From Copranaerobaculum intestinale (GTDB taxonomy: Bacteria; Bacillota_I; Bacilli_A; Erysipelotrichales; Erysipelotrichaceae): a DNA stretch of 32,000 nucleotides. Every line of letters starts with the position of its first letter. Positions within the stretch are counted from its first letter, which is position 1. A model generated the notes under the pieces. It saw nothing but the letters and a program-made list of their open reading frames with translations. It did not search any database and was not told where the DNA came from. Location: positions 810,001 to 842,000 of the forward strand of contig NZ_WUUQ01000001.1 of the NCBI RefSeq assembly GCF_009831105.1, given 5' to 3'. The position numbers and the translations under genes were made by a program. Shown here piece after piece: positions 17,696 to 32,000 of this stretch.

Positions 17696-17706
17696 TGTAA
17701 AAAGAT

Positions 17707-17745
17707 ACGGAAATCCTTTGTTTAATAGGGTTTCCGTTATTTTTA
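17707..17745 (+). terminator. Terminator downstream of tRNA-Lys
   Basis: ACGGAAATCC...GGGTTTCCGT stem followed by a T-rich run. Confidence 0.7.
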
Positions 17746-17817
17746 TGTATTCATAAATGATAATGTAAATTTTCCTATATCCGCCACATTTACCCTCGTT
17801 TTTCCACGCTCTTGGGT

Positions 17818-18501
17818 TCAAATTGGGGTCAAAGAATTAGAGGTGTTTTTAATGTAATTATCCAGTAATAAAGGGGCTTTCATATTATCTGTATCGGGGT
17901 GAGTATATGTATCCATTGTGATCACAACACTTGCATGACCCATTAGGTATTGCCGCTCTTTTAACGGGACACCAGCTTTGTCGAGCAATGTGGCATAATT
18001 ATGCCGGAAGATATGGGGAGTCAGGGAGTCAATGAATTCATCGTATTCTAGTTCAACGGCTTTTTTATTCATTTTCTTGATAATTGATTCCCACATTTTT
18101 TTGAATGATTGCTGAGTAATCCATTCACCTGATTTTATTGATGTGAATAGGTATTGTTTTTTTAATGTAGTTAAGTAATATGAAAGAAAAGGGAAACATT
18201 GGTCTATAAGGGGTATATCTCTTTCACCCGAATCTGATTTGGTTTCTTTCATAGAGGGTTGATTATTGATAAATTCAACAGTCTTTTTGAAGTAAGCCAA
18301 AGCTTTGCATAATCATGGAATATAATTAATTAATATATTATTTCGTTTGAGATAGTCAGATTTCATAAGAGTCTTATTATTTCCAGCTCTTCAATCGTTG
18401 TGCCATATATCTTTACTACGATTGGATTTCCAGTGTTGTAGCCTCTGCCTACAGTAACGTTTGTTGCGTATCTACGGCCTTTTTTTGTATCGATTTGCCA
18501 T
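17818..18501 (-). pseudogene. Tyrosine recombinase (phage integrase), disrupted
   Basis: The catalytic C-terminal domain is intact (SGERDIPL, HIFRHNYAT, GHASVVITMDTYTH). The N-terminal arm-binding part (MANRYKK/GRRYATNVTVGRGYNTGNPIVVKIYGTTIEELE) is out of frame at an A7 run and followed by stops. The core-binding domain is largely missing. Confidence 0.75.
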
Positions 18502-18573
18502 TTGCATACCTTCGTATAATTTGTTAGAATAGGTAAAGAAAAGGATAGTCTGTCAGGACATTTTTTCTATACA

Positions 18574-18612: not shown

Positions 18613-19383
18613 TTAAACAAAGTTGTTTAAATAAATTTTATTAGCTGTTAAATATTTTAAGAAATTGGCAAATATATTTATAACTTTTATCTCAGCATCA
18701 ATATTATCTTCATCAGATACCCATGAATGTGTATCAGTATTATACGTATAATATGCTTCACCGGTTTTGTATGTAATAGTTTTGTCTTTCCAATTGATAA
18801 GATATAGCTTTCCTTCAATTGTGGTAGCAAATGTATTATTTTCTAAATTAAAAACAGATACCCCAACATTTTGATAATCACCAAAAGTTTCAATTGATTT
18901 TATAATGTATGATTCATCATCTGACTCAAGCTTATATCCCAAATTAATTAAACGTTTTTCCACATCGGAACTATCATCACTTTTTGTATTGCTCGTGGTG
19001 TGCTTCTTGTCATAATAGTCCAGAACATTAATTATTTGGGATTTTTTCAGTCCCATTTCATTCAGCCAATCTAAATAAGCATCATATTGTAATTTTTCAT
19101 CTTTTGAATCATTTTCTTCCTTATCGATGATATTGGCATGCTTCTCGTTAACATCTTCTTTGCTAAACGTGTAATTCGTTCCTACATATGTGTTATCATA
19201 CTTCTGAACCCAAATATAAGATTCATCATCTTTATTTATGTTTGTAAAATAAACATAATGCGTTTCTTCTTCATCTGAAATATTAAATTTGTAACCCTTT
19301 TTCTCTAATAATTCAACTACCTCTGAATTTGATAATTTTGTATTATCATCTTTATTGCTACAAGCCGCCATCCCCAATACCAA
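18613..19383 (-). CDS. Prophage lipoprotein (lipobox LGMAAC) with two similar internal lobes; the signal peptide appears frameshifted
   Basis: ORF-track protein MVLGMAACSNKDD.... A GGAGGA ribosome-binding site plus TTG at 19417 opens MKKVFTALICAI in the +1 frame. Internal repeats: EVVELLEKKGYKFNISDEE and DVEKRLINLGYKLESDDES. Confidence 0.6.
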   Translation of the reverse strand: MVLGMAACSNKDDNTKLSNSEVVELLEKKGYKFNISDEEETHYVYFTNINKDDESYIWVQKYDNTYVGTNYTFSKEDVNEKHANIIDKEENDSKDEKLQYDAYLDWLNEMGLKKSQIINVLDYYDKKHTTSNTKSDDSSDVEKRLINLGYKLESDDESYIIKSIETFGDYQNVGVSVFNLENNTFATTIEGKLYLINWKDKTITYKTGEAYYTYNTDTHSWVSDEDNIDAEIKVINIFANFLKYLTANKIYLNNFV

Positions 19384-19718
19384 TTGCGCATATAAGCGCT
19401 GTAAAAACCTTTTTCAACTTTTTATCCTCCCATAATTTATATGTATAACATGCTCATCCATGTTGATACCCGATTGATTTTTTTCTGATTTCTCTATGCT
19501 GGTATATTTTATTTCATATTCCGTTTTGGAAAAATCTGTTCATGCTTGATTGAATTTTTTGCATGAGGCATTACGTATATAAATTAATTTGCTTATTTAA
19601 TGAACCTTACGATTATTATAATAACTGTCACCTAAAAAAACAACTCACATTACCAGCATATGTATCATTCCCAAAGCAGTTATTTATGCTAGAAAATTGC
19701 TAATAAAAAATGATTTGA

Positions 19719-20162
19719 TCAGTTTAAGCTTATGTGGTTTTGCGATTCATATTCCCAAAAATCATTTGCGATTTTTTCTGGTACACCTTTGTTAATCAAC
19801 AATGATGGTATGCAAAGATCATGGATATCTTCATCCGCCAACAGACAATAACAACCAAAATAGTTTGCTTCAGCTTCTGTACGGTTTCGATATCGCTCTG
19901 CAAGAAAATGATATTCTGTTCCAGGATTGTAATGGATCAGGTAATGACCGATTTCATGATAGAGTACAAACTTCTGATAATTTTCCTCCAAATCCGGTTT
20001 TACAAAAATAATTGCCTTCCTATTATAAATTCGCAGTAATGCATCCATGTTAAGCCCCATCTTCTCGTTCATATAGACCTTTTGAATACTCAGCTGTTGT
20101 AGCATATCCTCAACCGCAACGGTAGGAAATTGTGCCAATAAATCCTGATATTTCTTGAACAT
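19719..20162 (-). CDS. ImmA/IrrE-family zinc metallopeptidase
   Basis: HEIGH motif; 147 aa; lies immediately downstream of, and co-oriented with, an XRE repressor gene. GGAGGG ribosome-binding site. Confidence 0.85.
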   Translation of the reverse strand: MFKKYQDLLAQFPTVAVEDMLQQLSIQKVYMNEKMGLNMDALLRIYNRKAIIFVKPDLEENYQKFVLYHEIGHYLIHYNPGTEYHFLAERYRNRTEAEANYFGCYCLLADEDIHDLCIPSLLINKGVPEKIANDFWEYESQNHISLN

Positions 20163-20173
20163 TGTTAGCCCTC

Positions 20174-20656
20174 CTATTTCAAGTACTTCGAGGCTTTTTG
20201 CTCCATTTCATAAATATCGTTTGCCAAGTCGATCAATTCTTCCTGATTCATGGATTCTATATTCATTCCACCCATTGCATACATCTGCCCGCTGATCATA
20301 AATGCATATGCATCATCAAAGCTTTGAAAATGACGGTTTTCAACCCTAGCATGAACTCGCTGATATTCTAAATTCAATGTAGTTTCTACAGCTTTCTTTC
20401 CATATGCATCAAGTGAGCGGTAATGTGTGATCAGCTGCTTTTCATGCAAGGTATACGTTTCATCTTTAAAGTCAAAAAAGTAATTGGGTGATACATCAAG
20501 AACCTTGCATATACGCGTAAGTGTCTCTAAGTCCGGTTTACTGATATTTCGTTCCCAGTTATTGACCGTTGTATTGCTGACAGAAATCTGACTTGCTAAT
20601 TCATTCTGACGATATCCTTTTAATAGTCGCGCCTCTTTCATCTTTTCACCAAACAT
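20174..20656 (-). CDS. XRE-family (cI-like) repressor
   Basis: HTH segment KEARLLKGYRQNELASQISVSNTTVNNWERN. I prefer the ATG at 20656 (GAGGTGA upstream) over the track start at 20683. Confidence 0.85.
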   Translation of the reverse strand: MFGEKMKEARLLKGYRQNELASQISVSNTTVNNWERNISKPDLETLTRICKVLDVSPNYFFDFKDETYTLHEKQLITHYRSLDAYGKKAVETTLNLEYQRVHARVENRHFQSFDDAYAFMISGQMYAMGGMNIESMNQEELIDLANDIYEMEQKASKYLK

Positions 20657-20711
20657 ACTATCACCTCTTCTTACATCAATCATAGCACATTTGTAAATTT
20701 AATGATATTTA

Positions 20712-20805
20712 AAATTCAATTAAATTGGATTTTTAAATATTGATATCCATTGACATTTGCAATTTGCAGGAATATTATGGTATTAAATCCAATATAATTG
20801 AATTT
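20712..20805. promoter_or_regulatory. Genetic-switch region: consensus rightward promoter bracketed by a 21-bp inverted repeat (putative operators)
   Basis: AAATTCAATTAAATTGGATTT (20712-20732) and its inverted copy AAATCCAATATAATTGAATTT (20785-20805) differ at one position. Between them: TTGACA (20750-20755), 17-nt spacer, TATTAT (20773-20778). Confidence 0.65.
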
Positions 20806-20849
20806 AATTTATAAATGTTCAATTAAACGGTGGTGGGAGGAGAAATGAA

Positions 20850-21260
20850 ATGATTACACAAAAAGACAAGGCAGAACAATTTAAAAGGGATCTGCGTTCC
20901 AGACAATTTTATGAAGGAATGGTACGGGAATATGATTTGAAGCTGGAAGAAATTAGTATCCATCTTCAAGGTGTCAATTCGCCGCGTACCGATGTTGTAA
21001 GAAAGACAAGTCATCATCGGCAAAACAATTTTGTTTATTGGCTTATGGAGGAAGAAATCTGTATCAAAGAGCGAAAGAACTATTGTGATCGGATTGCTCG
21101 GATGGATGAAACATTGGCAAAACTGGAAGATGAAGAGCGGGATTTGATCGTCGATCTTTATGTAAAAAATAAACGTCATGAAAACGTTGCAGATGAACAT
21201 CATATGAACCGACAAAATATGTATAAAAAAATTGACAAAATGCTTTTTCGAATTTTATGA
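20850..21260 (+). CDS. Sigma-70 region-4-like / ArpU-RinA-type phage late-gene regulator
   Basis: 136 aa. The C-terminal ERDLIVDLYVKNKRHENVADEHHMNRQNMYKKIDKML looks like a region-4 HTH. The gene sits where late activators sit in Bacillota siphoviruses. Confidence 0.55.
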   Translation: MITQKDKAEQFKRDLRSRQFYEGMVREYDLKLEEISIHLQGVNSPRTDVVRKTSHHRQNNFVYWLMEEEICIKERKNYCDRIARMDETLAKLEDEERDLIVDLYVKNKRHENVADEHHMNRQNMYKKIDKMLFRIL

Positions 21261-21263: not shown

Positions 21264-21401
21264 TTGCGACAATGTACCAAAGCAGAAATGATATGATACA
21301 TATGCGGAAGAAAAACAAGCTTTTCTTCCTCTGCCTTTTGTTTGAACGGCATAAAAAAACAAAGCGTGTGAAGGCTGTGCTTCCGAAATAATTCACAGGA
21401 T
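21264..21401 (+). repeat. Late promoter/leader element, copy 1
   Basis: Blocks TTGCGACAATGTACC, GCCTTTTGTTTGAAcGGCATAAAAAAACAAAGC, TGAAGGCTGTGCTTC and CACAGGAT are shared with 26452-26581. Block 4 ends 20 nt before the ATG in both copies. Confidence 0.7.
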
Positions 21402-21421
21402 GTTCAAAATTGGGAGGGCTT

Positions 21422-21944: not shown

Positions 21945-22400
21945 ATGTTGGAAAACAAGCAGTTAGAATCTTTGACAATGTATGATCAGAAACGTATTGT
22001 TGATAGTCTTCTGCCATTTTTGGACACCATTCCTGATCTGCCTTCACCGATTAAATTTGGAGTCTTACATAAACAAAGTGTTTCCATGTGCGTCCAGTTT
22101 TTAAAAAGTGAAGTACAGAAAAGACAGGATATTACCGGGGGATATACAGGAAGTCTGTATTTCTCAATCTGGTATCGATTCCAAGAAGCGGATGCAGCGA
22201 CAGAATTATATGGTTCTAATGTCATGTATCAGATTAATGAATTTTTTGATTCTGCCTGCGAAAATAATGCATTGCCAGTATTAGGCGATGATATGCAGTA
22301 CTTGAAAATAGGAATGATTGAGCTTCCGACGGTAGAACGAAAAATAGACAATATGTTGGATTGCATGGCTATTTTTGAGTGTAGAATTGAACATCAATAA
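21945..22400 (+). CDS. Putative tail-completion / tail-terminator-type protein
   Basis: 151 aa with a strong AGGAGG ribosome-binding site, immediately upstream of the major tail protein gene. The call rests on position and size only. Confidence 0.45.
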   Translation: MLENKQLESLTMYDQKRIVDSLLPFLDTIPDLPSPIKFGVLHKQSVSMCVQFLKSEVQKRQDITGGYTGSLYFSIWYRFQEADAATELYGSNVMYQINEFFDSACENNALPVLGDDMQYLKIGMIELPTVERKIDNMLDCMAIFECRIEHQ

Positions 22401-22418: not shown

Positions 22419-22922
22419 ATGACTTCAGTAAATGCAGCAGGTATCGCTACGCGCGATGAAATGTTATCGTATATGAATACAGGATCTGGCGATCAGGCAG
22501 TATGGAGCCTGATCGGACAGGGTTTTACAGAATTGACAGAAGCTTTAAATGCAAAGACTAAGGATAGTCAGTATATTCACCAGAAATCGGGAACATCTTC
22601 CGTGATTGGATATGCCCCTACTTTTACATTTGTGGCAGAGCTTGATAAAGCGGATCCAGTGGCATCCTTTATTGCCAATATTGGACGTGAGCGTAAAATC
22701 GGTGCGGAATGTGAGACCGATATTGTGAATGTTTATTCCTGGCTGCCGGGTACAACTGAGGGCTCTGTGGTTGCTTATCAGCAGCATGTAGCCGTGAAAG
22801 TGGATAATAGTGGCTCCGGTGTCGGCGGTGAAGCAATGGGTCTTGCCGGCGCTCTGTTATACAAGGGTGATGCAGTAAAAGGGGAATGGAATCCAACTAC
22901 AAAGACTTTTACAGCAAAATAA
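22419..22922 (+). CDS. Major tail protein (TP901-1-like tail tube)
   Basis: 167 aa. N-terminal ...SYMNTGSGDQAVWSLIGQGFTELTEALNAKT... and its position ahead of the chaperone/TMP genes fit this family. Confidence 0.78.
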   Translation: MTSVNAAGIATRDEMLSYMNTGSGDQAVWSLIGQGFTELTEALNAKTKDSQYIHQKSGTSSVIGYAPTFTFVAELDKADPVASFIANIGRERKIGAECETDIVNVYSWLPGTTEGSVVAYQQHVAVKVDNSGSGVGGEAMGLAGALLYKGDAVKGEWNPTTKTFTAK

Positions 22923-22927: not shown

Positions 22928-22955
22928 AAGCGGATATTCATTATCCGCTTTTTTA
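22928..22955 (+). terminator. Intrinsic terminator directly after the major tail protein gene
   Basis: AAGCGGATA-loop-TATCCGCTT followed by T5. Confidence 0.7.
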
Positions 22956-22964
22956 ATAAGAATA

Positions 22965-23150
22965 GCAATTACCATCTTTTATTGACTGTGTTCAGCATAT
23001 TAAAAAAATCTCGATTCATTACTGCTGAAGCGATGAATCGTGAATATCCCGTTGGTTTAGCTTTTAAACGAGGTTGAAATTAATCGAAAGGAAATTGATA
23101 TACAATCTGATACTATGTACTATTTGAATACTTCTAATCTAGAATGTTAG
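22965..23150 (+). pseudogene. Relic of a duplicated tail-chaperone 3' end fused to an internally deleted gp15-like gene
   Basis: 22999-23110 aligns base-for-base (roughly 80% by eye) with 26940-27054, the chaperone/gp15 junction. 23123-23156 aligns with the gp15 3' end at 27575-27600. Confidence 0.6.
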
Positions 23151-23186
23151 TATATGTCGTCTAAAAGAAATTATATAATAAAAACA

Positions 23187-23286
23187 GATATCAAAAGAAG
23201 TCTAAAGCTATTGGAAAAGCAAATAGAAGATGATATGCTGAAAACATGAAAGAAGAGAGGAATTATTATGAAAAGAAATTTTTTAG
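23187..23286 (+). repeat. Conserved leader/mini-ORF block, copy 1 (upstream of paralog A)
   Basis: 3 mismatches over 98 nt against 24030-24127. 77 nt (23208-23284) are identical to 27648-27724. Confidence 0.85.
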
Positions 23287-23516
23287 GTTGTTTTAAAATG
23301 GATCCATGCGATATTCGTGATCATATGTTTAATGAAATTATAATGGGAATACAAAAGAATGGAGGAGAAATTTTAAGTACTCAAATGGTAAGTACTCGTC
23401 AATCTTTAACTACTTTTTTCTTAGTGCTTTACGAGGATAATAACTTATTTTCTGAAATAAATACTTTATTAGAAAATTATAAAGAAATTACAAAAAAAAC
23501 CACATGGCATCAATAA
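23268..23516 (+). CDS. Small protein, unrecognised family, paralog A (82 aa)
   Basis: AGAGGAA ribosome-binding site. Shares MKRNFL, GIQxNGGEIL and FFLVLYEDNN with paralogs C and E. Confidence 0.65.
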   Translation: MKRNFLGCFKMDPCDIRDHMFNEIIMGIQKNGGEILSTQMVSTRQSLTTFFLVLYEDNNLFSEINTLLENYKEITKKTTWHQ

Positions 23517-23590
23517 TAGTATTTAAGGAAAAAAAGACATTTATTTGACATGAAATAATCCTAATATGAAAGTTAATATGGAGGGAAAAG

Positions 23591-23824
23591 ATGAAAAGAG
23601 TATTTGTAAGTGAATTGAGTATTTTCAAAACTTTAAAAAGAAAAAAAACTAATAAGTATTATAATGAAATAATTTGTGGAATACAGGAGAGAGGTGGTGA
23701 AATCTTTTCAATAAATTTAAGCAATGCAACTTATGGTAATGAAAACGAACTTTTTATTGTTGTATATGAAGATAACAATAATAATGATGAAATCGAGAAA
23801 TTTTTAGATACGTTTACATCATAG
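23591..23824 (+). CDS. Small protein, same family, divergent paralog B (77 aa)
   Basis: GGAGGG ribosome-binding site. Family blocks GIQERGGEIFS and LFIVVYEDNN are present. Lacks the conserved leader. Confidence 0.6.
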   Translation: MKRVFVSELSIFKTLKRKKTNKYYNEIICGIQERGGEIFSINLSNATYGNENELFIVVYEDNNNNDEIEKFLDTFTS

Positions 23825-23833
23825 TGATTTTTT

Positions 23834-23859
23834 GACCACACGTAAGTGTGGTTTTTTTT
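23834..23859 (+). terminator. Intrinsic terminator after paralog B
   Basis: ACCACAC-GTAA-GTGTGGT followed by T8. Confidence 0.75.
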
Positions 23860-24029
23860 ATGAAAGAAAGGGGAGAGTTACGAATAAAAAGATAATCTTG
23901 AATTGAGTAAGAATATATCTAATGTGGATTTGATAGTCGAAAATGCCATAACATGTTGAATTATCTATTAATAATCGTGGTGAATCGTAAACCAACACAA
24001 TAGAGTATATTACTATAATGAATGATATT

Positions 24030-24129
24030 GATATCAAAAGAAGTTTAAAGCTATTGGAAAAGCAAATAGAAGATGATATGCTGAAAACAGGAAAGAAAAG
24101 AGGAATTATTATGAAAAGAAATTTTTTGA
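24030..24129 (+). repeat. Conserved leader/mini-ORF block, copy 2 (upstream of paralog C)
   Basis: See copy 1. Here the in-frame TGA is replaced by GGA, so the mini-ORF and paralog C are fused (track ORF 24018-24266). Confidence 0.85.
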
Positions 24130-24361
24130 GTACTTTTGGAATATCTTATTTTAAAATTGAAACTTTTATGTTCAATGAGATTTTGGTTGGTATACAAGAG
24201 AATGGAGGGGAAGTGTTAAGTACACAAGTTTATTCTCCTAATTCTGGAGCTATTACTTTTTTTTAGTATTGTATGAAGATAATGGATTTTATTCTGAGAT
24301 AAGTGCTTTTTTAAAAGACTATGAAAAGATTAAAAAAAATATGAATTGGCATAACAACTAA
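24111..24361 (+). pseudogene. Paralog C, interrupted by a frameshift in a T8 tract
   Basis: Reads MKRNFLSTFGISYFKIETFMFNEILVGIQENGGEVLSTQVYSPNSGAITFF*. The -1 frame continues LVLYEDNGFYSEISAFLKDYEKIKKNMNWHNN*. Confidence 0.6.
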
Positions 24362-24467
24362 TTTATGTTTTTTGAAAGAAATGAGGGAAATATTTGCTTG
24401 AAAATGAGGGAAAAGCAATGTGAATATGCTAGGTTAAGGTTAGATAAAAAGAGTGTGTATAAGTTAA

Positions 24468-25370: not shown

Positions 25371-25616
25371 TTTGTATTACATATATTCTATATCACACTT
25401 TATTACTCAGTTCACCCAATCTATCTTCTGTCATATCACTTATCAATTTTAAGAACATGTTAGAAATATTTTAATGTTTATTATATTCATTCTTTACTTT
25501 CATTGAATGGAAAGCCTTTATATTTACATATCTATTAACATTTATTTTTTAAGACTTAGATAGGATGCCAAGATGTGTAGTACATAAATACTGATATTCA
25601 TAAGTGATAAAAAAGA

Positions 25617-26009
25617 TTAATGATTGTTGTCTCTTTCATATAAAGTAGTTCCAGTAATATCTAAATCTTCATAGGTTAAATCTAATTCTTTTAAGAGACT
25701 GTCAATCTTCTTTTTTGCTTTTTTATCACAATTACTATTTTTATCTGGATCCGTATTACTTAACACACAATAACTTGGGTTATATGATGTTGATGATTTT
25801 GCACCACTATTATCTTCTTTTGGGAAAAAAGTGAAAGTTATATCATCTCTAGTAAAAATATATCCTTTCTTATCTTTGAAATCATAAAATTCTTCTTCAA
25901 ATCCATTATCCAGAAGAATAGAGCGAATGTCTTTTTCTTCTTTCCCACCACAACCGACTATACAAGATAAAAATAAGACTGCAAATAAAATAAGTGCTGT
26001 TTTTCTCAT
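25617..26009 (-). CDS. Small lipoprotein (130 aa)
   Basis: Signal peptide plus lipobox MRKTALILFAVLFLSCIVGC. Opposite strand to the tail genes, inside the AT-rich insert. Confidence 0.7.
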   Translation of the reverse strand: MRKTALILFAVLFLSCIVGCGGKEEKDIRSILLDNGFEEEFYDFKDKKGYIFTRDDITFTFFPKEDNSGAKSSTSYNPSYCVLSNTDPDKNSNCDKKAKKKIDSLLKELDLTYEDLDITGTTLYERDNNH

Positions 26010-26451
26010 AAATTCATCTCTTTATCTTAATATTAGCATATTAAATAAGGATTTCCAATAAAGATATATTTACTATACTAATACTTTTAGATTACATTCA
26101 GATGCTTCTTTATTAGGTTTCAATTTAGCTATTTTAAGAATTAATAAATTATGTGTTTAAAAACAGATATTTGCTTGAATTTATTCTAGTTAACATAAGT
26201 ATTTTTGTATAAAAATTTTCCAAAATCAAGATGAAAATAGTCAGATAGAATGGTGTGGTACATAAAATTTAATTTCTCATATATACACGAATCAGAAATA
26301 AATATTAATTGTTAAAAATTGGTATTCTTTATACTGTATTTGTGCTAGTTAAATGTTAATGATTATAAAACTGAATCATCAAATTTATAAAGGGAAAGAC
26401 ATATTCCTAGAACTGCGGAAATAGAAAAATAAGACAAAAATAATAACTATA

Positions 26452-26581
26452 TTGCGACAATGTACCTAGATATCCATGATAAGATGATAGTGTGGTTTGA
26501 TAGATAGAAAACCTTTGCCTTTTGTTTGAATGGCATAAAAAAACAAAGCAATGAAGGCTGTGCTTCTTTTTTACACAGGAT
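26452..26581 (+). repeat. Late promoter/leader element, copy 2
   Basis: Same four conserved blocks as 21264-21401, and the same 20-nt distance from CACAGGAT to the start codon (26602). Confidence 0.7.
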
Positions 26582-26601
26582 ACTAAAGGGAGAAAATAAA
26601 T

Positions 26602-27003
26602 ATGAGTAAATTTGAATTTAAGAATCAGGAAAAGCCAGAATTCTTGAAACTTCAGATAAATGGAAGAAACTATTCATTTAATCCATTGTCATTATCGGTG
26701 AAAAGAGCTTCAGAAAAATTTTTGAAGGGACAAAAAGTGCTTATGCGCCAGTCAAAGAAAGAAAATTTAAAACAGGAAGAAATCTCTGATATTGTTTATA
26801 AATGCTGTGATTTAGTAAGAGAAACCATTGATTTGATTCTAGGTAATGGAGCGTATGAAAAAATATTTGGAGGCAGAACGATGGATTTTGAAGAAAATCA
26901 GGAATTAGTAACCTTTATTTTTCAAGAAATTGCATCATTTACCAAAAATAAGAATCTGACGGTACATGCGGAAGAAATGAATCATGAACATCTTGTTGGA
27001 TAA
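26602..27003 (+). CDS. Putative tail assembly chaperone
   Basis: 133 aa, acidic. Sits at the position preceding the gp15-like and tape-measure genes. GGGAG ribosome-binding site. Confidence 0.55.
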   Translation: MSKFEFKNQEKPEFLKLQINGRNYSFNPLSLSVKRASEKFLKGQKVLMRQSKKENLKQEEISDIVYKCCDLVRETIDLILGNGAYEKIFGGRTMDFEENQELVTFIFQEIASFTKNKNLTVHAEEMNHEHLVG

Positions 27004-27586
27004 GCTTCCGAACAAGGTTGAAATTAATCAGAAGGAAATTGATATTCGATCTGATTTCAGACAGGGAATACAGTTTGAAATGCTGATGGCTGATTCATCA
27101 ATTTCCTATATGGATAAGATGTTAAAAGCTATTTTAATATACTATCCAAAAGTTCCGGAGGATATATCTGCATGTGTTGAAAAACTTATATGGTTTTATA
27201 ACTGTGGAATGAAATTGAAAGAGAGAAAAAATGTGAATGGGAAATTAACAAATAAACCGATTTTTTCCTATGAGCAAGATCAATATCTTATTTATTCAGC
27301 TTTCCTGCAGTATTATCAAATTGATCTGAATGATATTGAATATTTGCATTGGTGGAAATTTAAAGAGCTTTTTCAAGAATTGCCAGATGAATCAAAAATA
27401 AAACAAGTGATGATGTACCGATCCATACCGATTACTTCGAATATGTCTGAGGATCAAAGACAATTTTATGCAAATATGAAAAATATATATCGTTTAAATG
27501 ATGATCGTTCGGAAAAACAGATTGCTAATTCTTTTGCATCTATCCTTGCTTCTGGGATGATGAATGCCCCTGAACTTGAATACTAG
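26984..27586 (+). CDS. Gp15-like tail assembly protein
   Basis: 200 aa. N-terminal LPNKVEINQKEIDIRSDFRQGIQFEMLM resembles the Gp15 family of TP901-1/A118-like phages. Overlaps the upstream gene by 20 nt. Confidence 0.55.
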   Translation: MNILLDKLPNKVEINQKEIDIRSDFRQGIQFEMLMADSSISYMDKMLKAILIYYPKVPEDISACVEKLIWFYNCGMKLKERKNVNGKLTNKPIFSYEQDQYLIYSAFLQYYQIDLNDIEYLHWWKFKELFQELPDESKIKQVMMYRSIPITSNMSEDQRQFYANMKNIYRLNDDRSEKQIANSFASILASGMMNAPELEY

Positions 27587-27647: not shown

Positions 27648-27726
27648 CTATTGGAAAAGCAAATAGAAGATGATATGCTGAAAACATGAAAGAAGAGAGG
27701 AATTATTATGAAAAGAAATTTTTTGA
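27648..27726 (+). repeat. Conserved leader/mini-ORF block, copy 3 (upstream of paralog E)
   Basis: 77 nt identical to copy 1. Weaker similarity extends upstream to about 27615. Confidence 0.85.
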
Positions 27727-27965
27727 GTATATTTGGGATTGAACCATTCAAAATTCGAGATTACATGTTAAATGAAATATTAATGGGAATACAAGAAAAT
27801 GGGGGAGAAATTTTAAATACACAAATACAAAAGTCATATCCTAATCATTATGCATTTTTCTTAGTGTTGTATGAGGATAATAATCATTATTCTGAAATTC
27901 ATGCATTTTTAGAAAGTTATGAAGAGATTACGAAAAAAACCGTATGGCATCAACAAAATACTTAA
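27708..27965 (+). CDS. Small protein, same family, paralog E (85 aa)
   Basis: 52 of 82 aligned residues are identical to paralog A (counted by eye). Located between the gp15-like gene and the tape-measure gene. Confidence 0.7.
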   Translation: MKRNFLSIFGIEPFKIRDYMLNEILMGIQENGGEILNTQIQKSYPNHYAFFLVLYEDNNHYSEIHAFLESYEEITKKTVWHQQNT

Positions 27966-28048: not shown

Positions 28049-30361
28049 ATGATAGAGAATTATGAAATAGATTCAAAGACATTTTTAAACCAAATGGATC
28101 AGCTATCTATCTCCGTACAGAAGGCAATGCAAATGATGGGTGAAAGTATTTCTGTAACCATGAGTGATTTGGCTTCTACGTTAGATAGAACTATTCAATA
28201 TATGGACACATTTGCAAGTAGTACTGCTTCAGTTAGTGATGCACAATCCACGGCGATAACAAGCATAACACTGTTCAATGGGGTTATGGGGATGTTAAGC
28301 GCAACGATAAATATTGCTAATACCTGTGCAGAAAACTTTAATCTTGCAATGCTTGCAAGTCCATATGTTATCGTCGCTACAGCAATTGCTGGAGTAGTAA
28401 GTGCTCTGGGAGTATTATCATCCTTCATGGGTAACGAAATAAGTGAGCATCAGCGTGCCATGGATGCGATCAATAAAGAAATTGATGCAAGAAATGATTT
28501 AAAAAGTAAACAAGAGGAACAATTAGCAGCCAATTTAAGTGAAGCAGTTAATATTCAGGGATTGAATAATGAGCTCAATAAACTTGTAAATGCGAATGGT
28601 GAAGTAAAAGCGGGCTATGAAGATAGAGCCGCTTTTATTATATCTACATTAAATAGTGCTTTAGGAGAACAGATTAAAATAGAAAATGGCGTGGTAACTG
28701 GTTACGATAACGCATCAGGAGCCATTGATAACAAAATTGCGAAATTACGAGCTGAAGCTGTACTGGAAGCAGAATTGCCTATTTATAAAAAAGCATTGAT
28801 AGAATTATCCGAGGCTCAGGTTAAAGCGGATAAATTAGAAAGTGAAATGTCCGAATTAAAAACAAAAAGGAAGGCCAAAGAAGCTGAGCTTGAAGCTGAA
28901 TATCATGATAATTGGAGACAAAAAGCTTTAGAAAAAGGAGATCTTCGTTTAGCAGAATTATCACAATTAGAATTAGAAACTGATACAAAGCAAGAGCAAT
29001 ATGATCAGCAGAATAAACTTATTGAAGGATATTATGATGATATTTCGCTCTATGAAACAAATGCTGCGTTAATTGCCAGTGGCAATGCTGAGAATTATGC
29101 AAAAGTCCAAATGGAATCTGCTGTAACCAAAGCACAATCTGTTGAAGAGAAAAAAATAGCTTTGCAAAAAGAGATTGATGCGGAAACAGATCATATTGAT
29201 TACTTGAAAGAATTAAAGAATAAAGAAAAGGATGAAGAAAAACAACGTCAAATTCAAGCTCAAATTGAGGCTGAAGAGTTGAAACTCACTGGCTATCAAA
29301 ATGAAATTGACGGATTTGTAGAGCAAGGGGAGAAAATAGCAGAGCTAGGAAAAATTAAAAATAATGATGAATTGAGCGCGTTGGAAACATTTATTAATAG
29401 CAAACAAGAGAAACTTATAGAAATGAATCAAACCGAGAGTTCACAATGGACTGAGCAGCAACAGCAAGAGGCAGCAGATTTACAAAAATCGATAACCGAT
29501 AATTTGAAATTATATACAGATTATGCTGACAAAAAGATTTTAAAAGCAAAAGAAAAAACGGCAAAGCTGAATGAAAATTCAACTCAAGAGGAGAAGGATG
29601 CGGCAGCAGCAGCCGAACGTGAAGCGGCGAACACATTAGAAATATTAGGACAGAATGCAATTGATAAATTAAATGTTTTGGAAGATTTAAAACAGCGTAA
29701 GAAAAATGGAGAATCCGGTATAACCGATGATATGATCGAAGAAGCTGCCAGACAAGCAAAGGAAGCTGAAAAAGGCTATAAAAAAGTCGCAAATAAAGTG
29801 GAAGGAAGTTTTAAGGACCTACCTGAAAGCTCACGTAAAATCTTTGGCGATGTAATGATACCAATGCTAGATGAAATGCAGAAGAAAGAAGAACCGTTGT
29901 TTAAAAAAGCGGATCGAATAGCTGGGGGAATCCTAGATCGATTGAAAAAATCCTTTGACATACATTCACCTTCCCGTAAAGTGCGTCAAATTTTCCAATA
30001 TGTAATGGAAGGTGCCAAAATAGGATTGGATGATCGAACTCCGGAATTGTTAAAACAGACTGATGCTATTTCATCTGATGTTTTAGAGTCTTTCCTAAAT
30101 CTGGATGTATCAGAAGTAAATCGAATGGTTGATAAGATGCAAGATGCATTCCATCGAGAAAATTTTAAGATAAATGGTTTGATACAATCAAGTTATTCAC
30201 ATGAATTGATGACTACCGGAAAATTACATGTCGATGTTCCTGAATTAAAAGCAACTTTAAAGGGTAATCTTGAGAATCACATTTCCATTGACGGGCGTGA
30301 AACGGCAGTCGCATTAACGCCTTTTATCAGTGAAGAAATAGCGTTTCAAGGAGGTCTATAA
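28049..30361 (+). CDS. Tail tape measure protein
   Basis: 770 aa: hydrophobic segments near the N terminus, a very long E/K-rich coiled coil, and a C-terminal DIHSPSRK-type motif. Lies immediately upstream of the Dit and Tal genes. Confidence 0.88.
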   Translation: MIENYEIDSKTFLNQMDQLSISVQKAMQMMGESISVTMSDLASTLDRTIQYMDTFASSTASVSDAQSTAITSITLFNGVMGMLSATINIANTCAENFNLAMLASPYVIVATAIAGVVSALGVLSSFMGNEISEHQRAMDAINKEIDARNDLKSKQEEQLAANLSEAVNIQGLNNELNKLVNANGEVKAGYEDRAAFIISTLNSALGEQIKIENGVVTGYDNASGAIDNKIAKLRAEAVLEAELPIYKKALIELSEAQVKADKLESEMSELKTKRKAKEAELEAEYHDNWRQKALEKGDLRLAELSQLELETDTKQEQYDQQNKLIEGYYDDISLYETNAALIASGNAENYAKVQMESAVTKAQSVEEKKIALQKEIDAETDHIDYLKELKNKEKDEEKQRQIQAQIEAEELKLTGYQNEIDGFVEQGEKIAELGKIKNNDELSALETFINSKQEKLIEMNQTESSQWTEQQQQEAADLQKSITDNLKLYTDYADKKILKAKEKTAKLNENSTQEEKDAAAAAEREAANTLEILGQNAIDKLNVLEDLKQRKKNGESGITDDMIEEAARQAKEAEKGYKKVANKVEGSFKDLPESSRKIFGDVMIPMLDEMQKKEEPLFKKADRIAGGILDRLKKSFDIHSPSRKVRQIFQYVMEGAKIGLDDRTPELLKQTDAISSDVLESFLNLDVSEVNRMVDKMQDAFHRENFKINGLIQSSYSHELMTTGKLHVDVPELKATLKGNLENHISIDGRETAVALTPFISEEIAFQGGL

Positions 30362-31020
30362 TGAAAATAAATGATCATAATTTTACAGAATTTCGCGCAA
30401 GTGTTGTGCGATTCTCCCCCGTAAGCATGGAGTTTACGCAAGATATTTTATTTGGCGGTAACAGCTACTATCCGATCATGGGCGAAAAGTCATTAAAGCC
30501 GCAGCAGCGTGAATTGGTAATCGACTTTACCCGTGAAGAAGATATCAGTAATTTTTCTGCGGAAGCCCAAAAAGAATGTGTGCTTGATCTGGATGATGGA
30601 TATCGCTATCACTGCTATCCAACTACCTATGGCAAAATCAGCGAGGAAGCATACGGAGCTTATACCGGTATTTATACGTTTTATACGTTAAAGCAGAAAC
30701 CGTTGATTACGGAAAATTTGAATGATTCAATCATGAATCAGGGAAATATTGAAACAAACATGATTTATGAAATCACATCAAAACAAGCGATTGATGATTT
30801 TTATGTGGGTGATATTCATGTAATGAGTCTGCCCACAGATAAAACGCTGATCATCGACGGTATCGATAAACGCATTTATTATCAGGACAATCCGGATGTT
30901 TCAGCCTTCGACAGTGTGATGATTTCACGATTTCCGATGTTAAAAGCTGGACTTAATGAAATCACTAAAAGCGATCCCAGTGTGCAGGTAGTCGTGAAGT
31001 ACTATCCAACCTTTATGTAA
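30361..31020 (+). CDS. Distal tail protein (Dit, siphovirus tail family)
   Basis: 219 aa. ATGA overlap with the TMP stop. Position and size fit Dit. Confidence 0.65.
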   Translation: MKINDHNFTEFRASVVRFSPVSMEFTQDILFGGNSYYPIMGEKSLKPQQRELVIDFTREEDISNFSAEAQKECVLDLDDGYRYHCYPTTYGKISEEAYGAYTGIYTFYTLKQKPLITENLNDSIMNQGNIETNMIYEITSKQAIDDFYVGDIHVMSLPTDKTLIIDGIDKRIYYQDNPDVSAFDSVMISRFPMLKAGLNEITKSDPSVQVVVKYYPTFM

Positions 31021-31032
31021 GGAGGCAGGACT

Positions 31033-32000
31033 ATGTTACTAATAAAAACAGCGCAGGGCTATCTGCCGTTGGAAAACCGAACCAATTTTAGTATAACTAC
31101 CGAATATGAGGGCGAGCAATCGCTCTCTTTTGATATTCAGCCATCAGATTCTAACTTTACATATTTGAAGGAAGAATCATCACTTCGATTTGAAGATAAT
31201 GATTTTCTGATTAAATCAATTAACCAGCGAAAAGAAATAGCTACTATCACGGCTGAAATTGACATGGATGAATGGAAAAAACAGATATATCCTCGTTTTA
31301 TTCGTAAAAACATAGGGTTTACGGAATTGCTGGAGTACATTATTCCATCCGGATGGACGCTCGTAGGTGCTGGTACAGTTGTAGGGCACACAGATATTGA
31401 CATGGAAGGATGCACTGATTACGAAATTCTAATGGCATGTAAACAGTTATATGGTGTGGTCTATGAGTATCATACCGCTTCAAAACAGATCAAGATCATT
31501 CATCCGGATCTGATTCAGCCGCGGGGTTTGTATATGAGTGATGAATTGAATTTGCAGAATTTGGAATTTAAAGGATCAAGCAGCGGATTCGTAACCAGAT
31601 TGTATGCATATGGTAAAAAAACGGAAACAAAAGATGAGGACGGCAATGTTTCAGCGGTTTCCTATGTGAATTTTGCGGTGCTCAACAAGGGCAAAGAATA
31701 TATTGAAAATCATGAATATAGTGAAAAAATTGTTTCTGCCTATTGGCATGATGACGCAATCACGGATGAAAAAGAGCTTTTGGATGAAGCAATCGAAAAA
31801 TTAAAAATAGCTGCAATTCCCAATCGCTCTTATAGCTGTAAACTTATCGATCTTTCAAGAATAAATCCCAAATATCGCATGCTGGATTTTAAAATGTATG
31901 ATAAACCTACCTTAATTGATAATCGGTGTAATTTATATATTACTCATCAGATCGTACAATACAAACGGTATCCAGATAATGAAGGTCTTAATGAAATTGC
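31033..32000 (+). CDS. Tail-associated (Tal) / phage minor structural protein, N-terminal part; continues beyond the window
   Basis: AAGGAGG ribosome-binding site plus ATG at 31033, with an open frame to the window edge. Absent from the ORF track because it has no stop in the window. The N-terminal region resembles prophage tail endopeptidase/Tal N domains. Confidence 0.7.
   Translation, partial: MLLIKTAQGYLPLENRTNFSITTEYEGEQSLSFDIQPSDSNFTYLKEESSLRFEDNDFLIKSINQRKEIATITAEIDMDEWKKQIYPRFIRKNIGFTELLEYIIPSGWTLVGAGTVVGHTDIDMEGCTDYEILMACKQLYGVVYEYHTASKQIKIIHPDLIQPRGLYMSDELNLQNLEFKGSSSGFVTRLYAYGKKTETKDEDGNVSAVSYVNFAVLNKGKEYIENHEYSEKIVSAYWHDDAITDEKELLDEAIEKLKIAAIPNRSYSCKLIDLSRINPKYRMLDFKMYDKPTLIDNRCNLYITHQIVQYKRYPDNEGLNEI

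What the first reader, a model, noticed from the sequence alone, without database searches (positions are those of the whole stretch)
17696..32000. Regulatory module wired straight to a non-contractile tail module: candidate F-type tailocin locus (or a very selectively pruned prophage)
Reading left to right: tRNA-Lys, integrase relic, lipoprotein, ImmA protease, XRE repressor, switch promoter, sigma/ArpU-like late regulator, two small proteins, major tail protein, chaperones, TMP, Dit, Tal.

There is no cro/antirepressor, no replication module, and no terminase, portal, protease or capsid gene where siphoviruses carry them (between the lysogeny module and the tail tube gene). The only gap is 21.3-21.9 kb.

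The consensus rightward promoter at 20750-20778 reads directly into the late activator. The implied circuit is short: repressor inactivation, then activator, then tail genes.

This resembles the organisation reported for Listeria monocins (F-type, TP901-1-like tails). The integrase is dead, which is consistent with a domesticated and immobilised element. No contractile sheath gene is present.
Basis: inference. Interest (0 to 1): 0.75.

Follow-up and report, generated by a model that had tools for sequence, protein, structure and literature searches.

The report
Head-less phage-tail (tailocin-like) gene cluster
A gut bacterium (Copranaerobaculum intestinale) keeps, at a fixed place in its chromosome, an intact and evolutionarily conserved set of genes for a flexible phage tail plus a switch and a cell-lysis kit but no genes for a phage head, which is what a tail-shaped protein weapon (F-type tailocin) looks like; nobody has yet shown that it makes particles or kills.

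Summary
Window 17.7-32 kb (continued by the identical contig L001) contains: tRNA-Lys, a dead integrase, a lipoprotein, ImmA/XRE, one strong rightward promoter, a small regulator with a sigma-region-4-like HTH, and a 155-aa unknown. It then has a tail-terminator candidate, tube protein, two chaperones, TMP, Dit, Tal, RBP, two small membrane proteins and an amidase, followed by housekeeping genes. There are no terminase, portal, capsid, replication or sheath genes.

Evidence for a maintained element rather than a rotting one:
- The same locus occurs in every assembly of the species examined.
- Pooled dN/dS is 0.12-0.14 with no indels, while the integrase accumulates indels.
- dN/dS is 0.04-0.16 against a diverged tail-only relative.
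- Tail-only relatives share short TMPs (708-770 aa, against 1076-1196 aa in complete phage relatives).
- A conserved late-promoter/leader is present twice, once after the regulator and once after the moron block. Complete phages carry this promoter type once, just downstream of their homologous regulator and 1.5-4.8 kb upstream of the terminase genes where those were detected.

Verdict: a credible new candidate F-type tailocin, analogous to but not homologous with monocin. It is a new member of a known kind, and function is untested.

The parts
17620..17695 (+). tRNA-Lys (CTT). Former integration site and left boundary of the element.
   Evidence: ARAGORN; Rfam tRNA 68 bits.
17818..18520 (-). 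Tyrosine-integrase pseudogene. A C-terminal 160-aa ORF lies at 17818-18300, with frameshifted N-terminal remnants upstream and the middle of the gene deleted.
   Evidence: Only Pfam PF00589 positions 65-169 match. Three-frame translation shows N-terminal arm-type remnants in other frames. Between strains it has 2-5 indels and 92-96% identity.
18613..19419 (-). Lipoprotein (256-268 aa) between the integrase and the repressor module. This is the position of a lysogenic-conversion or exclusion gene.
   Evidence: Lipobox LGMAAC. Weak hits to phage lipoprotein PHROGs. No Pfam or PADLOC hit.
19719..20162 (-). ImmA/IrrE-type metalloprotease, the presumed anti-repressor.
   Evidence: PF06114 E 1.9e-10. 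dN/dS 0 within the species and 0.07 against L015.
20174..20683 (-). XRE/CI-like repressor.
   Evidence: PF01381 E 1.1e-15. dN/dS 0-0.06 within the species and 0.09 against L015.
20705..20812 (.). Genetic switch. A 28-nt inverted repeat (20705-20732 and 20785-20812; core AAATTCAATTAAATTGGATTT) flanks the rightward promoter TTGACA-17-TATTAT (20750-20778). The repeat arms are candidate operators.
   Evidence: An AATCCAAT...ATTGAATT-like motif recurs in the switch regions of L015 and L016. The operator role is inferred.
20850..21260 (+). Late-gene regulator 'reg136': an N-terminal helical hairpin plus a C-terminal sigma-70 region-4-like HTH.
   Evidence: Weak HMM hits: phrog_36 7e-5, Sigma70_r4_2 0.014, RinA 0.055. 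AF2 pLDDT 87; the C-terminal ~55 aa superpose on SigF/SigD region 4 at 1.7-1.8 A, but no Foldseek hit reaches E<=0.001. Homologues in 20 phage contigs lie upstream of the terminase genes.
21264..21421 (+). Late promoter/leader, copy A. It comprises Box1 TTGCGACAATGTACC (21264-21278), an extended -10 TGATATGAT (21289-21297), a hairpin (21306-21329), Box2, Box3 GAAGGCTGTGCTTC...CACAGG, and an RBS.
   Evidence: 85-97% nt identity to L015, higher than the flanking coding DNA. Repeated at 26452-26566. The boxes are invariant in 7 copies from 4 lineages. The same architecture lies downstream of the regulator in 16 of 19 phage contigs.
21422..21889 (+). Conserved 155-aa protein of unknown function, the first gene of late unit A.
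   Evidence: Orthologues occur in L004-L007, L015, L016 and L023. dN/dS is 0.00-0.16. No family hit.
21945..22400 (+). Tail-terminator (TrP) candidate, 151 aa.
   Evidence: Homologous (23-27% identity, E 3e-7 to 1e-11) to the gene immediately upstream of the tube gene in the complete phages L011, L014, L021 and L022. It occupies the same position as FtbF in monocin (PMC11830787). No Pfam or PDB sequence hit, so the assignment rests on synteny.
22419..22922 (+). Major tail (tube) protein, 167 aa. A hairpin follows at 22927-22951.
   Evidence: phrog_3099 1e-43 and phrog_820. NCBIfam tube_lmo2291 above its cutoff. PDB 11ok, the tube of the C. histolyticum F-type tailocin, E 2.8e-18. Hairpin.
22952..26440 (.). 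AT-rich (26% GC), strain-variable moron block. It contains a relic of the chaperone/Gp15 junction (23023-23111), par82 (23268-23516), par77 (23591-23824, with a terminator at 23834-23853), a frameshifted par copy (~24112-24350), a par fragment (24547-24720), and a lipoprotein gene (25617-26009, minus strand).
   Evidence: The block is about 1.5 kb in strains L004, L006 and L007, and absent in L015.
26452..26601 (+). Late promoter/leader, copy B. It comprises Box1 (26452-26466), an extended -10 TGATAAGAT (26477-26485), GATAGTGTGG, Box2, Box3, and an RBS.
   Evidence: Identity to L015 copy B is 89.8% nt, although the adjacent chaperone protein is only 37% identical.
26602..27586 (+). Tail assembly chaperone pair: DUF6673 (26602-27003) overlapping Phage_Gp15 (26984-27586).
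   Evidence: PF20378 1.9e-5 and PF06854 2.3e-51. Homologous to the pair downstream of the tube gene in complete phages.
27708..27965 (+). par85, the fifth copy of the orphan ~80-aa family, lying directly upstream of the TMP gene.
   Evidence: The family has only 4 clusters among 5.8 billion proteins. AF2 gives a beta-alpha-beta-beta-alpha-beta ACT/ferredoxin-like fold (best model pLDDT 83, the other four 64-68) with only generic fold matches.
28049..30361 (+). Tape measure protein, 770 aa.
   Evidence: TMP PHROGs, best 2e-12. 31% identical to the 1117-aa TMP of phage L011. The allele in other strains is 759 aa and 60% identical.
30361..31020 (+). Distal tail protein (Dit), 219 aa.
   Evidence: phrog_33 2e-7; SPP1_Dit C-terminal domain 1.5e-4, which is below the Pfam cutoff. 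45% identical to the Dit of phage L011.
31033..32000 (+). Tal / baseplate hub. The window holds the first 322 aa of a 705-aa protein. The element continues beyond the window with the RBP, two small membrane proteins and an amidase.
   Evidence: Prophage_tail 2e-25 and Prophage_tailD1 7e-10. Continuation in L001.

Best explanation
This is a domesticated, immobilised, tail-only derivative of a temperate siphovirus in Copranaerobaculum intestinale (Erysipelotrichaceae). Its most likely product is a non-contractile (F-type) phage tail-like particle released by lysis of the producer cell.

Proposed mechanism, with the basis of each step:
1. The XRE repressor holds the single strong rightward promoter (20750-20778) shut through the flanking inverted-repeat operators. 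(Annotation shown; operator role inferred.)
2. A stress signal activates the ImmA-type metalloprotease, which removes the repressor. This is what MpaR does to the CI-like repressor of monocin. (Inferred by family analogy.)
3. The first gene transcribed is a small regulator with a sigma-region-4-like HTH. (Position shown.)
4. This regulator activates two copies of a late promoter. Each has a 15-nt box, TTGCGACAATGTACC, in the -35 position and an extended -10. (Architecture and conservation shown; binding inferred.)
5. Unit A gives the 155-aa protein, the terminator candidate and the tube. Unit B gives the chaperones, TMP, Dit, Tal, RBP, holin-like proteins and amidase. (Gene content shown.)
6. 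Tails are assembled on the short TMP, capped, and released by lysis. They presumably kill or damage sensitive relatives. (Not shown.)

The AT-rich moron block sits between the two late units and therefore does not interrupt either of them.
For: Gene content: a complete siphovirus tail module and lysis module, with no head, packaging, replication or sheath genes in the window or in the 100%-identical continuation L001.

What was lost: complete phage relatives L011, L014, L020, L021 and L022 carry TerS-TerL-portal-scaffold-MCP-connectors directly upstream of the orthologous terminator/tube genes.

Fixed locus: the same flanking genes and the same layout occur in L004-L007 and in the isolate genome. 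Summed over 90%-identity clusters, element genes are seen on about as many contigs (51-61) as the neighbouring housekeeping genes (55-58).

Selection:
- Within the species there are no indels or stops, and pooled dN/dS is 0.12-0.14 over ~2550 codons. The integrase relic, by contrast, carries 2-5 indels.
- Against the diverged tail-only relative L015, dN/dS is 0.04-0.16 at dS 0.7-2 for the regulator, the 155-aa protein, the terminator candidate, the tube, Dit, ImmA and XRE.

Derived features shared by tail-only relatives:
- TMPs of 708-770 aa without PF10145, against 1076-1196 aa with PF10145 in three of the complete phages.
- A second late-promoter copy upstream of the chaperones in the window strain, L004-L007, L015 and L023. 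It is absent from that position in complete phages.
- The terminator candidate is the most diverged tail protein relative to phages (23% identity, against 78% for the tube).

Regulator: it has a sigma-r4-like fold. In 20 phage contigs its homologues sit 1.5-4.8 kb upstream of the terminase genes where those were detected, and in 16 of 19 they are followed by the same box-N-extended -10-GATAG promoter.

Precedent: the closest solved structure to the tube is the tube of an observed F-type tailocin of C. histolyticum. Monocin has the same order of functions: regulators, TrP, tube, chaperones, TMP, Dit, hub, fibres, holin-lysin (PMC11830787). It also has a metalloprotease/CI-like switch (PMC9043618).
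Against: - No experimental evidence exists for particles, induction or killing.
- Purifying selection measured between tail-only relatives assumes that head loss predates their split. This is supported by shared junctions but not proven.
- The terminator assignment rests on synteny and weak homology only.
- The regulator's family assignment is weak, and its binding to Box1 is inferred.
- One relative (L023) has a nonsense codon in the terminator candidate and a frameshift in Gp15. The E. hominis element has an IS91 insertion and no terminator gene. So some lineages of this kind do decay.
- The RBP is nearly invariant among the sampled strains (98.6% nt). This differs from the RBP diversification typical of many tailocins.
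- 'Near-core' rests on contig counts, not on a strain panel.
Confidence: 0.65

Rival explanations
1. It is a functionless prophage remnant that happens to have lost its left half recently and has not yet accumulated lesions in the tail genes.
For: - The integrase is dead and no attR is found.
- A 3.5-kb block of AT-rich foreign DNA with pseudogenised par copies sits inside the tail region.
- The related elements L023 (nonsense plus frameshift) and E. hominis (IS91) show decay.
Against: - dN/dS is 0.12-0.14 within the species and 0.04-0.16 against L015 at near-saturated dS. There are no indels in about 2550 codons, while the adjacent integrase relic carries 2-5 indels.
- The same head-less junction is found in lineages whose regulators are only 56-81% identical.
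- A non-coding leader is more conserved than the neighbouring genes and is duplicated exactly where it is needed to drive the distal genes.
Confidence: 0.15
2. It is a tail donor. The particles are not weapons but are joined to capsids made elsewhere: by another prophage, a capsid-forming island, or a split prophage in the same genome.
For: - The tube protein is 72-78% identical to those of co-circulating complete phages (L011, L020, L022), so mixed assembly is conceivable.
- A terminator candidate, the head-joining surface, is retained.
Against: - The terminator candidate is only 23-27% identical to the phage protein, while the tube is 78% identical. This suggests relaxed or changed constraints at the head-joining end.
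- The element carries its own lysis cassette and its own induction switch.
- The TMPs are shorter than those of the complete phages.
- The rest of the genome could not be inspected here.
Confidence: 0.08
3. It is a tail-like particle, or simply a regulated lysis module, with a non-bactericidal role. Examples would be release of cytoplasmic goods, biofilm matrix or DNA, or interaction with the host, with the tail genes retained for that purpose.
For: - The RBP is nearly invariant among strains. This fits a fixed target better than an arms race between strains.
- The element carries three lipoprotein morons and an orphan gene family of unknown role.
Against: - All characterised head-less siphovirus-type tail clusters with this layout (F-pyocin, monocin, efagin, the C. 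histolyticum tailocin) are bactericidal or are interpreted as such (PMC11830787, PMC12713668, bioRxiv 10.64898/2026.06.17.733002).
- Nothing in the cluster resembles an effector or a eukaryote-targeting domain.
Confidence: 0.07

Closest known systems
[quoted passage not shown]
   Same: The order of functions is the same: regulatory genes, terminator, tube, two chaperones, TMP of similar size (622 aa against 770 aa), Dit, hub, fibre/RBP, holin-lysin, with no head genes (PMC11830787). Both use a repressor plus metalloprotease anti-repressor switch (MpaR/CI-like; PMC9043618). Both are chromosomal and immobile.
   Different: No sequence homology was detectable: the tube, Dit, Tal and RBP find no monocin chain in the PDB. 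The element derives from a different siphovirus lineage (Gp15/DUF6673 chaperones, relatives L011/L014). It has a duplicated late promoter, an internal moron block, and an orphan par gene family.
F-type tailocin of Clostridium (Hathewaya) histolyticum NCTC 503 (PDB 11ok tube; bioRxiv 10.64898/2026.06.17.733002)
   Same: The tube protein is homologous (E 2.8e-18 over 138 residues). That locus is also TrP-tube-...-TMP-Dit-hub-RBP-lysis, and it demonstrably yields head-less flexible tails.
   Different: The host class differs (Clostridia against Erysipelotrichia). The C. histolyticum locus has a duplicated tube gene, whereas this one has a single tube gene plus par/lipoprotein morons.
Efagins of Enterococcus faecalis
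   Same: A head-less, chromosomally fixed, species-wide, monocin-like tail cluster in a gut Firmicute. It was interpreted as independently evolved from a siphovirus (PMC12713668).
   Different: Efagins are reported as exclusive to E. faecalis, with no significant identity elsewhere. They are experimentally shown to kill; this element is not.
Complete temperate siphoviruses of gut Erysipelotrichaceae/Firmicutes (metagenomic contigs L011, L014, L020-L022; IMG/VR contigs L024-L043)
   Same: They share homologous tube (51-78%), chaperones, Dit, Tal, terminator candidate (23-27%) and regulator (28-42%), and the same late-promoter architecture.
   Different: They carry TerS, TerL, portal, scaffold, MCP and connectors. 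Their TMPs are 1076-1196 aa with PF10145 in L011, L020 and L022; L014 and L021 also have long TMP regions. Within the DNA held for them, no late-promoter motif lies between their tube and chaperone genes.
PBSX-type xre/xpf control of defective prophages (Bacillus subtilis); from my own knowledge, not tested here
   Same: The logic is the same: an Xre repressor controls a small sigma-like positive factor, which in turn switches on the structural and lysis operon.
   Different: PBSX has a contractile tail and heads that package DNA. No sequence relation was tested.

Membership tests
F-type (non-contractile) phage tail-like bacteriocin / tailocin | A complete siphovirus-type tail gene set (terminator, tube, chaperones, TMP, Dit, hub/Tal, fibre/RBP) without a sheath. 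| tested here: met
   The terminator is assigned by synteny and weak homology only. No sheath family hit was found on any ORF.
F-type (non-contractile) phage tail-like bacteriocin / tailocin | Absence of capsid, portal, terminase and replication genes from the element. | tested here: met
   Pfam/PHROG scans of all ORFs in the window and in L001. tblastn with the head proteins of L011 and L020-L022 finds them only in complete phage loci. The rest of the genome was not examined.
F-type (non-contractile) phage tail-like bacteriocin / tailocin | Its own lysis cassette for release. | tested here: met
   An Amidase_2 endolysin (6e-23; PHROG lysis families to 7e-42) is preceded by 58-aa and 75-aa proteins with predicted transmembrane segments, in phage families phrog_13256 and phrog_1863. 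Holin function is inferred.
F-type (non-contractile) phage tail-like bacteriocin / tailocin | Chromosomally fixed, non-mobile, and maintained by selection in the species. | tested here: met
   The integrase is a pseudogene and no attR is found. The flanks are identical in L004, L005 and L017 and in the isolate contig. Pooled dN/dS is 0.12-0.14 with no indels. Contig counts are similar to those of neighbouring core genes. No systematic strain panel was available.
F-type (non-contractile) phage tail-like bacteriocin / tailocin | Inducible production of head-less particles with bactericidal activity on related strains. | not testable with these tools
   This needs induction, EM and killing assays.
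Monocin (Listeria ftb) family | Sequence homology of the structural proteins to FtbF-FtbP. | tested here: not met
   phmmer of the tube, Dit, Tal and RBP against all PDB chains, which include the monocin cryo-EM structure described in PMC11830787, returned no monocin chain. The resemblance is organisational.
Tube family of the C. histolyticum F-type tailocin / Listeria A118 lmo2291-type tubes | Tube protein sequence homology. | tested here: met
   PDB 11ok_A E 2.8e-18. NCBIfam NF047353 tube_lmo2291 scores 28.4 bits against a cutoff of 27.
Phage-inducible chromosomal island / phage satellite | Functional integrase, replication (primase/rep) module, and packaging-redirection genes; no tail module of its own. 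| tested here: not met
   The integrase is dead, there is no replication or packaging gene, and a full tail module is present.
Gene transfer agent / PBSX-like defective phage | Head and packaging genes present; particles carry DNA. | tested here: not met
   There are no head or packaging genes in the locus.
RinA/ArpU/sigma-like phage late activators (the regulator at 20850-21260) | A significant match to a curated family model. | tested here: inconclusive
   All hits are below the curated cutoffs: Sigma70_r4_2 15.5 bits against 25.7, RinA 13.6 against 31.9, phrog_36 E 7e-5. The structural match is local, to sigma region 4 only, with Foldseek E>0.3. Its position and associated promoter in phages fit a late activator.

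The most novel reading that the evidence does not exclude
The strain-variable cassettes inside the tail operon could form a specificity/self-protection module for a TMP-mediated killing mechanism. These cassettes are the arrays of orphan 'par' genes, whose subtype next to the TMP gene goes with the TMP allele (par77 with TMP-759; the long par type with TMP-770; each strain keeps the other subtype in the moron block). They also include the lipoprotein genes inserted near the TMP/chaperone genes in two independent tail-only lineages (the window and L019). Such a module would be analogous to orphan immunity arrays of polymorphic toxin systems, and is unknown for tailocins.
Probability: 0.07. Interest if true: 0.85.

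Novelty: new member of a known kind. Interest (0 to 1): 0.5.

Why it matters
Few F-type tailocins are characterised in Gram-positive bacteria. The text searches here turned up monocin, efagins and the C. histolyticum particle, and none for Erysipelotrichia.

If this cluster is active, a common human-gut commensal lineage carries a narrow-spectrum, engineerable protein weapon. Similar tail-only clusters exist in at least five further lineages, including [Eubacterium] hominis, and these could shape strain competition in the gut.

The locus also offers a compact regulatory cascade that can be tested: ImmA/XRE, then a sigma-r4-like activator, then a defined 15-nt box plus extended -10 promoter present in two copies. 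It is a natural case study of how a prophage is converted into a tail-only machine, through head deletion between the late promoter and the terminator gene, TMP shortening and promoter duplication.

Tried and rejected
- attR search: exact 12-mers and blastn-short of the tRNA-Lys 3' end and downstream DNA against L001 gave only chance-level hits.
- Empty-site or alternative contexts, looked for through the flanking transglutaminase-like protein: only the same context was returned.
- Terminator identity: Pfam on 24 family members, and PDB profile searches with two alignments, gave nothing.
- Regulator fold search: no Foldseek hit at E<=0.001, only local sigma-r4 superpositions.
- par family: no Pfam, PHROG, NCBIfam or PADLOC hit. 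Only 4 clusters exist among 5.8 billion proteins. The fold is a generic ACT/ferredoxin-like one, so no function can be derived.
- RNA reading of the leader: no Rfam family matched. The fold of copy A is not better than shuffles (z -0.37). RNAalifold pairs are mostly invariant, with compensatory changes only in the first hairpin. I therefore treat it primarily as a promoter/leader DNA element.
- More leader copies in public data: two patterns were scanned in IMG/VR and JGI metagenomes and gave zero hits.
- Genome-contig scan with the tube alignment returned only 3 loci.
- Satellite/PICI, GTA and contractile (R-type) readings were rejected on gene content.

Full report
**What is in the sequence.**

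The left 17.4 kb of the window is ordinary chromosome. It carries an MFS transporter, alanine dehydrogenase, TfoX, ABC-F, UDG, a glyoxalase-like protein, a polysaccharide deacetylase, a P-type ATPase, MatE, RimO, a second UDG-like protein, a 2-hydroxyacid dehydrogenase and a transglutaminase-like protein. It ends with tRNA-Ser and tRNA-Lys.

- an integrase relic (only the C-terminal part of PF00589),
- a lipoprotein,
- ImmA/Peptidase_M78,
- an XRE-type HTH protein,
- a 136-aa regulator,
- two small proteins,
- a tube protein,
- DUF6673 and Phage_Gp15,
- a 770-aa TMP,
- Dit,
- Tal.

Exact-sequence look-ups identify the organism as Copranaerobaculum intestinale (Erysipelotrichaceae). The tube protein is WP_160624540.1, on a 979-kb contig of strain DONG20-135.

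**What lies to the right.**

Contig L001 is 100% identical to window 27700-32000 and runs 9 kb further. It carries:
- the full Tal (705 aa),
- a 744-aa tail fibre/RBP (phrog_372 5e-59; Gp10_C, an fn3 domain),
- a 58-aa protein with two hydrophobic segments,
- a 75-aa protein with one,
- an Amidase_2 endolysin.

A minus-strand lipoprotein gene follows, and then MsrA, a DedA/VTT protein and FtsX.

No head or packaging gene follows. No repeat of the tRNA-Lys 3' end marks an attR. The element is therefore about 20 kb long and consists of a switch, tail genes, lysis genes and a few morons.

Between the tube gene and the chaperones lies a 3.5-kb block of 26% GC. It contains:
- a relic of the chaperone/Gp15 junction (23023-23111, 81% identical to 26967-27055),
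- two intact copies, one frameshifted copy and one truncated copy of an orphan ~80-aa gene ('par'),
- an opposite-strand lipoprotein gene.

A fifth par copy sits between Gp15 and the TMP gene.

The block differs between strains. It is about 1.5 kb with one par copy in L004, L006 and L007, and it resembles the window in L005. It is absent in the diverged relative L015.

The par family has only four clusters among 5.8 billion proteins. It has no family hit, and its predicted fold is a generic ACT/ferredoxin-like one.

**Is it a maintained element or wreckage?**

1. The same locus lies between the same neighbours in every assembly of the species that I retrieved. Element genes occur on about as many contigs as the adjacent housekeeping genes, 51-61 against 55-58.
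2. Between strains the tail and regulatory genes have no indels or stops. Pooled dN/dS is 0.12-0.14 over about 2550 codons. The integrase relic has 2-5 indels and 92-96% identity.
3. L015 has a regulator 81% identical and the identical head-less junction. Against it, dN/dS is 0.04-0.16 at dS 0.7-2 for the regulator, the 155-aa protein, the terminator candidate, the tube, Dit, ImmA and XRE.
4. Further tail-only relatives exist. L016 (regulator 56% identical) lies next to ABC-transporter genes. L019, [Eubacterium] hominis (L008, L012) and L013 have LexA-like or XRE repressors plus a cro-like gene.
5. Complete phage relatives (L011, L014, L020-L022) show exactly what is missing. TerS, TerL, portal, scaffold, MCP and three connector genes lie directly upstream of a 152-156-aa gene that precedes the tube gene.
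6. The 151-aa protein here is homologous to that 152-156-aa gene (23-27% identity, E 3e-7 to 1e-11). It is therefore the tail-terminator candidate, as FtbF is in monocin (PMC11830787).
7. It is the most diverged tail protein relative to phages, while the tube is 78% identical. This is what one might expect if the head-joining surface is no longer constrained. That last point is inference.
8. All tail-only elements with a complete TMP gene call have TMPs of 708-770 aa without PF10145. The complete phages L011, L020 and L022 have 1076-1196 aa with PF10145.

Not all relatives are healthy. L023 has a nonsense codon in the terminator candidate and a frameshift in Gp15. The E. hominis element has an IS91 transposase between the regulator and the tube gene.

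**The circuit.**

The 166-bp divergent region contains the best sigma-70 promoter match of the region, TTGACA-17-TATTAT at 20750-20778. A 28-nt inverted repeat flanks it, and its core motif recurs in the switch regions of L015 and L016.

The first rightward gene is the 136-aa regulator:
- HMM evidence is weak: phrog_36 7e-5, Sigma70_r4_2 0.014, RinA 0.055, Q-like 0.002-0.014.
- An AF2 model (pLDDT 87) shows a helical hairpin plus a three-helix C-terminal domain. That domain superposes on sigma region 4 of SigF and SigD at 1.7-1.8 A. No whole-protein match reaches significance.

The stronger argument is comparative:
1. Directly downstream of the regulator gene lies a stretch that is 85-97% identical to L015, more than the flanking coding DNA.
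2. About 120 nt of this stretch is repeated immediately upstream of the chaperone gene (26452-26566; E 2e-13).
3. Seven copies from four lineages share three features: an invariant Box1 (TTGCGACAATGTACC), an extended -10 (TGATATGAT or TGATAAGAT) 10 nt further on, and invariant Box2 and Box3 ahead of the RBS.
4. Copy B is 89.8% identical between the window and L015, although the adjacent chaperone proteins are only 37% identical.
5. Homologues of the regulator (28-42% identity) occur in 20 IMG/VR phage contigs. Where terminase genes were detected by similarity, they lie 1.5-4.8 kb downstream of the regulator.
6. In 16 of 19 of these contigs, a lineage-variable box, N9-10, TGnTAnnAT and GATAGYRTGRA follow within 200 nt of the regulator gene. 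In phage L025 the box differs from Box1 by one base.
7. The strict motif occurs once in the 32-kb window. It never occurs between the tube and chaperone genes of complete phages.

I conclude three things. The regulator is the late activator inherited from the ancestral phage. Head loss removed the DNA between its promoter-proximal gene and the terminator gene. The tail-only lineage acquired a second promoter copy that drives the distal unit. Binding of the regulator to Box1 is inferred, not shown.

This arrangement also explains why the AT-rich moron block is tolerated. It lies between the hairpin after the tube gene (22927-22951) and promoter copy B.

It also removes an apparent lesion. The 44-aa ORF plus in-frame stop ahead of the 155-aa gene is the leader read as protein, as shown by the identical leader in front of the chaperone gene.

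**Comparison with known systems.**

*Monocin.* The organisation matches monocin gene for gene, and the switch matches its MpaR/CI-like pair (PMC11830787, PMC9043618). However, the tube, Dit, Tal and RBP find no monocin chain in the PDB. It works like a monocin without being a member of that family.

*C. histolyticum tailocin.* The one solved relative is the tube of the C. histolyticum F-type tailocin, which was seen as head-less tails in collagenase preparations.

*Efagins.* These are a further independent example in a gut Firmicute.

*Literature.* Full-text searches found no paper that combines tailocins with Erysipelotrichaceae, and no paper on phage elements of Copranaerobaculum.

The closest cultured phages are Clostridium siphoviruses at 30-36% tube identity.

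**Verdict.**

The interpretation as a candidate F-type tailocin is supported by all the sequence-level tests that could be run. It is a new member of a known kind. Three details deserve follow-up: the duplicated late promoter, the short TMP, and the polymorphic par/TMP region. Function remains to be demonstrated. I put about 0.65 on a selectively maintained, particle-producing tail-only element, 0.15 on an inert remnant, and the rest on other uses of the tails.

Noticed in passing
window 21264-21421 and 26452-26601; L015 1870-2015 and 3860-3977; L016 5166-5323; L023 1914-2059 and 3731-3874: A ~150-nt non-coding element occurs twice per element. Its boxes are invariant: TTGCGACAATGTACC; an extended -10; TGCCTTTTGTTTGAAYGGCATAAAAAAACAAAGC; GAAGGCTGTGCTTC...CACAGG. 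It is more conserved than the adjacent genes. The part downstream of the -10 (Box2, Box3) is unexplained and could be an RNA leader. It is not in Rfam and has no other copies in IMG/VR or JGI metagenomes.
   Followed up: yes
window 23268-23516, 23591-23824, ~24112-24350, 24547-24720, 27708-27965: An orphan ~80-aa gene family ('par'; motif NEIxxGIQENGGEIL...FLVLYEDNN) is present in 2-5 copies per strain, some of them pseudogenised, with signs of gene conversion. Only 4 protein clusters exist in the 5.8-billion-protein database. The predicted fold is ACT/ferredoxin-like. The function is unknown.
   Followed up: partly
window 28049-29837 compared with L004 13347-15100: The TMP is dimorphic within the species (770 aa against 759 aa, 60% aa identity overall), although flanking genes are 98-99% identical at the nucleotide level. 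By blastn only the last ~525 nt of the gene still align (94%). The short par77 type precedes TMP-759 in 3 of 3 strains. A long par type precedes TMP-770 in 2 of 2 strains.
   Followed up: partly
window 18613-19419(-), 25617-26009(-); L001 9139-9984(-); L019 12322-12648(+): The C. intestinale element carries three unrelated lipoprotein genes: one at the left end, one inside the tail region and one at the right end. Another tail-only lineage (L019) has a lipoprotein gene in an AT-rich insert between Gp15 and the TMP gene. They may be exclusion or self-protection morons. The Ltp-like analogy comes from my own knowledge and was not tested.
   Followed up: partly
L008 3362-4772, L009, L010, L012 ([Eubacterium] hominis): A second tail-only element occurs in [Eubacterium] hominis. 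It has a serine recombinase gene, a LexA-like CI, a cro-like gene, and a regulator of the same family. An IS91-family transposase follows, then the tube gene with no terminator gene. Its Tal is 76% identical to that of the complete phage L011, so this may be a more recent, IS-mediated head loss.
   Followed up: partly
L023 2606-3061 and 4262-4863: A relative with a regulator 74% identical has a nonsense codon (Q118*) in the terminator candidate and a frameshift splitting Gp15. This is either real decay or an assembly error in a single-run assembly.
   Followed up: partly
window 23023-23111 compared with 26967-27055: An 89-nt relic, 81% identical to the DUF6673/Gp15 gene junction, sits just after the tube gene. 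It shows that the moron block arose with a duplication or recombination of the chaperone region.
   Followed up: no
window 26984-27003: Gp15 starts 20 nt before the DUF6673 stop, in the +1 frame. A programmed frameshift producing a G/GT-like fusion chaperone is possible but was not examined.
   Followed up: no
L021 11546-13197: In one complete phage relative a Bro-N/ANT antirepressor-like moron is inserted between Gp15 and the TMP gene, and the TMP is called in two pieces. The Gp15-TMP junction therefore appears to be a general moron insertion site in this phage group.
   Followed up: no
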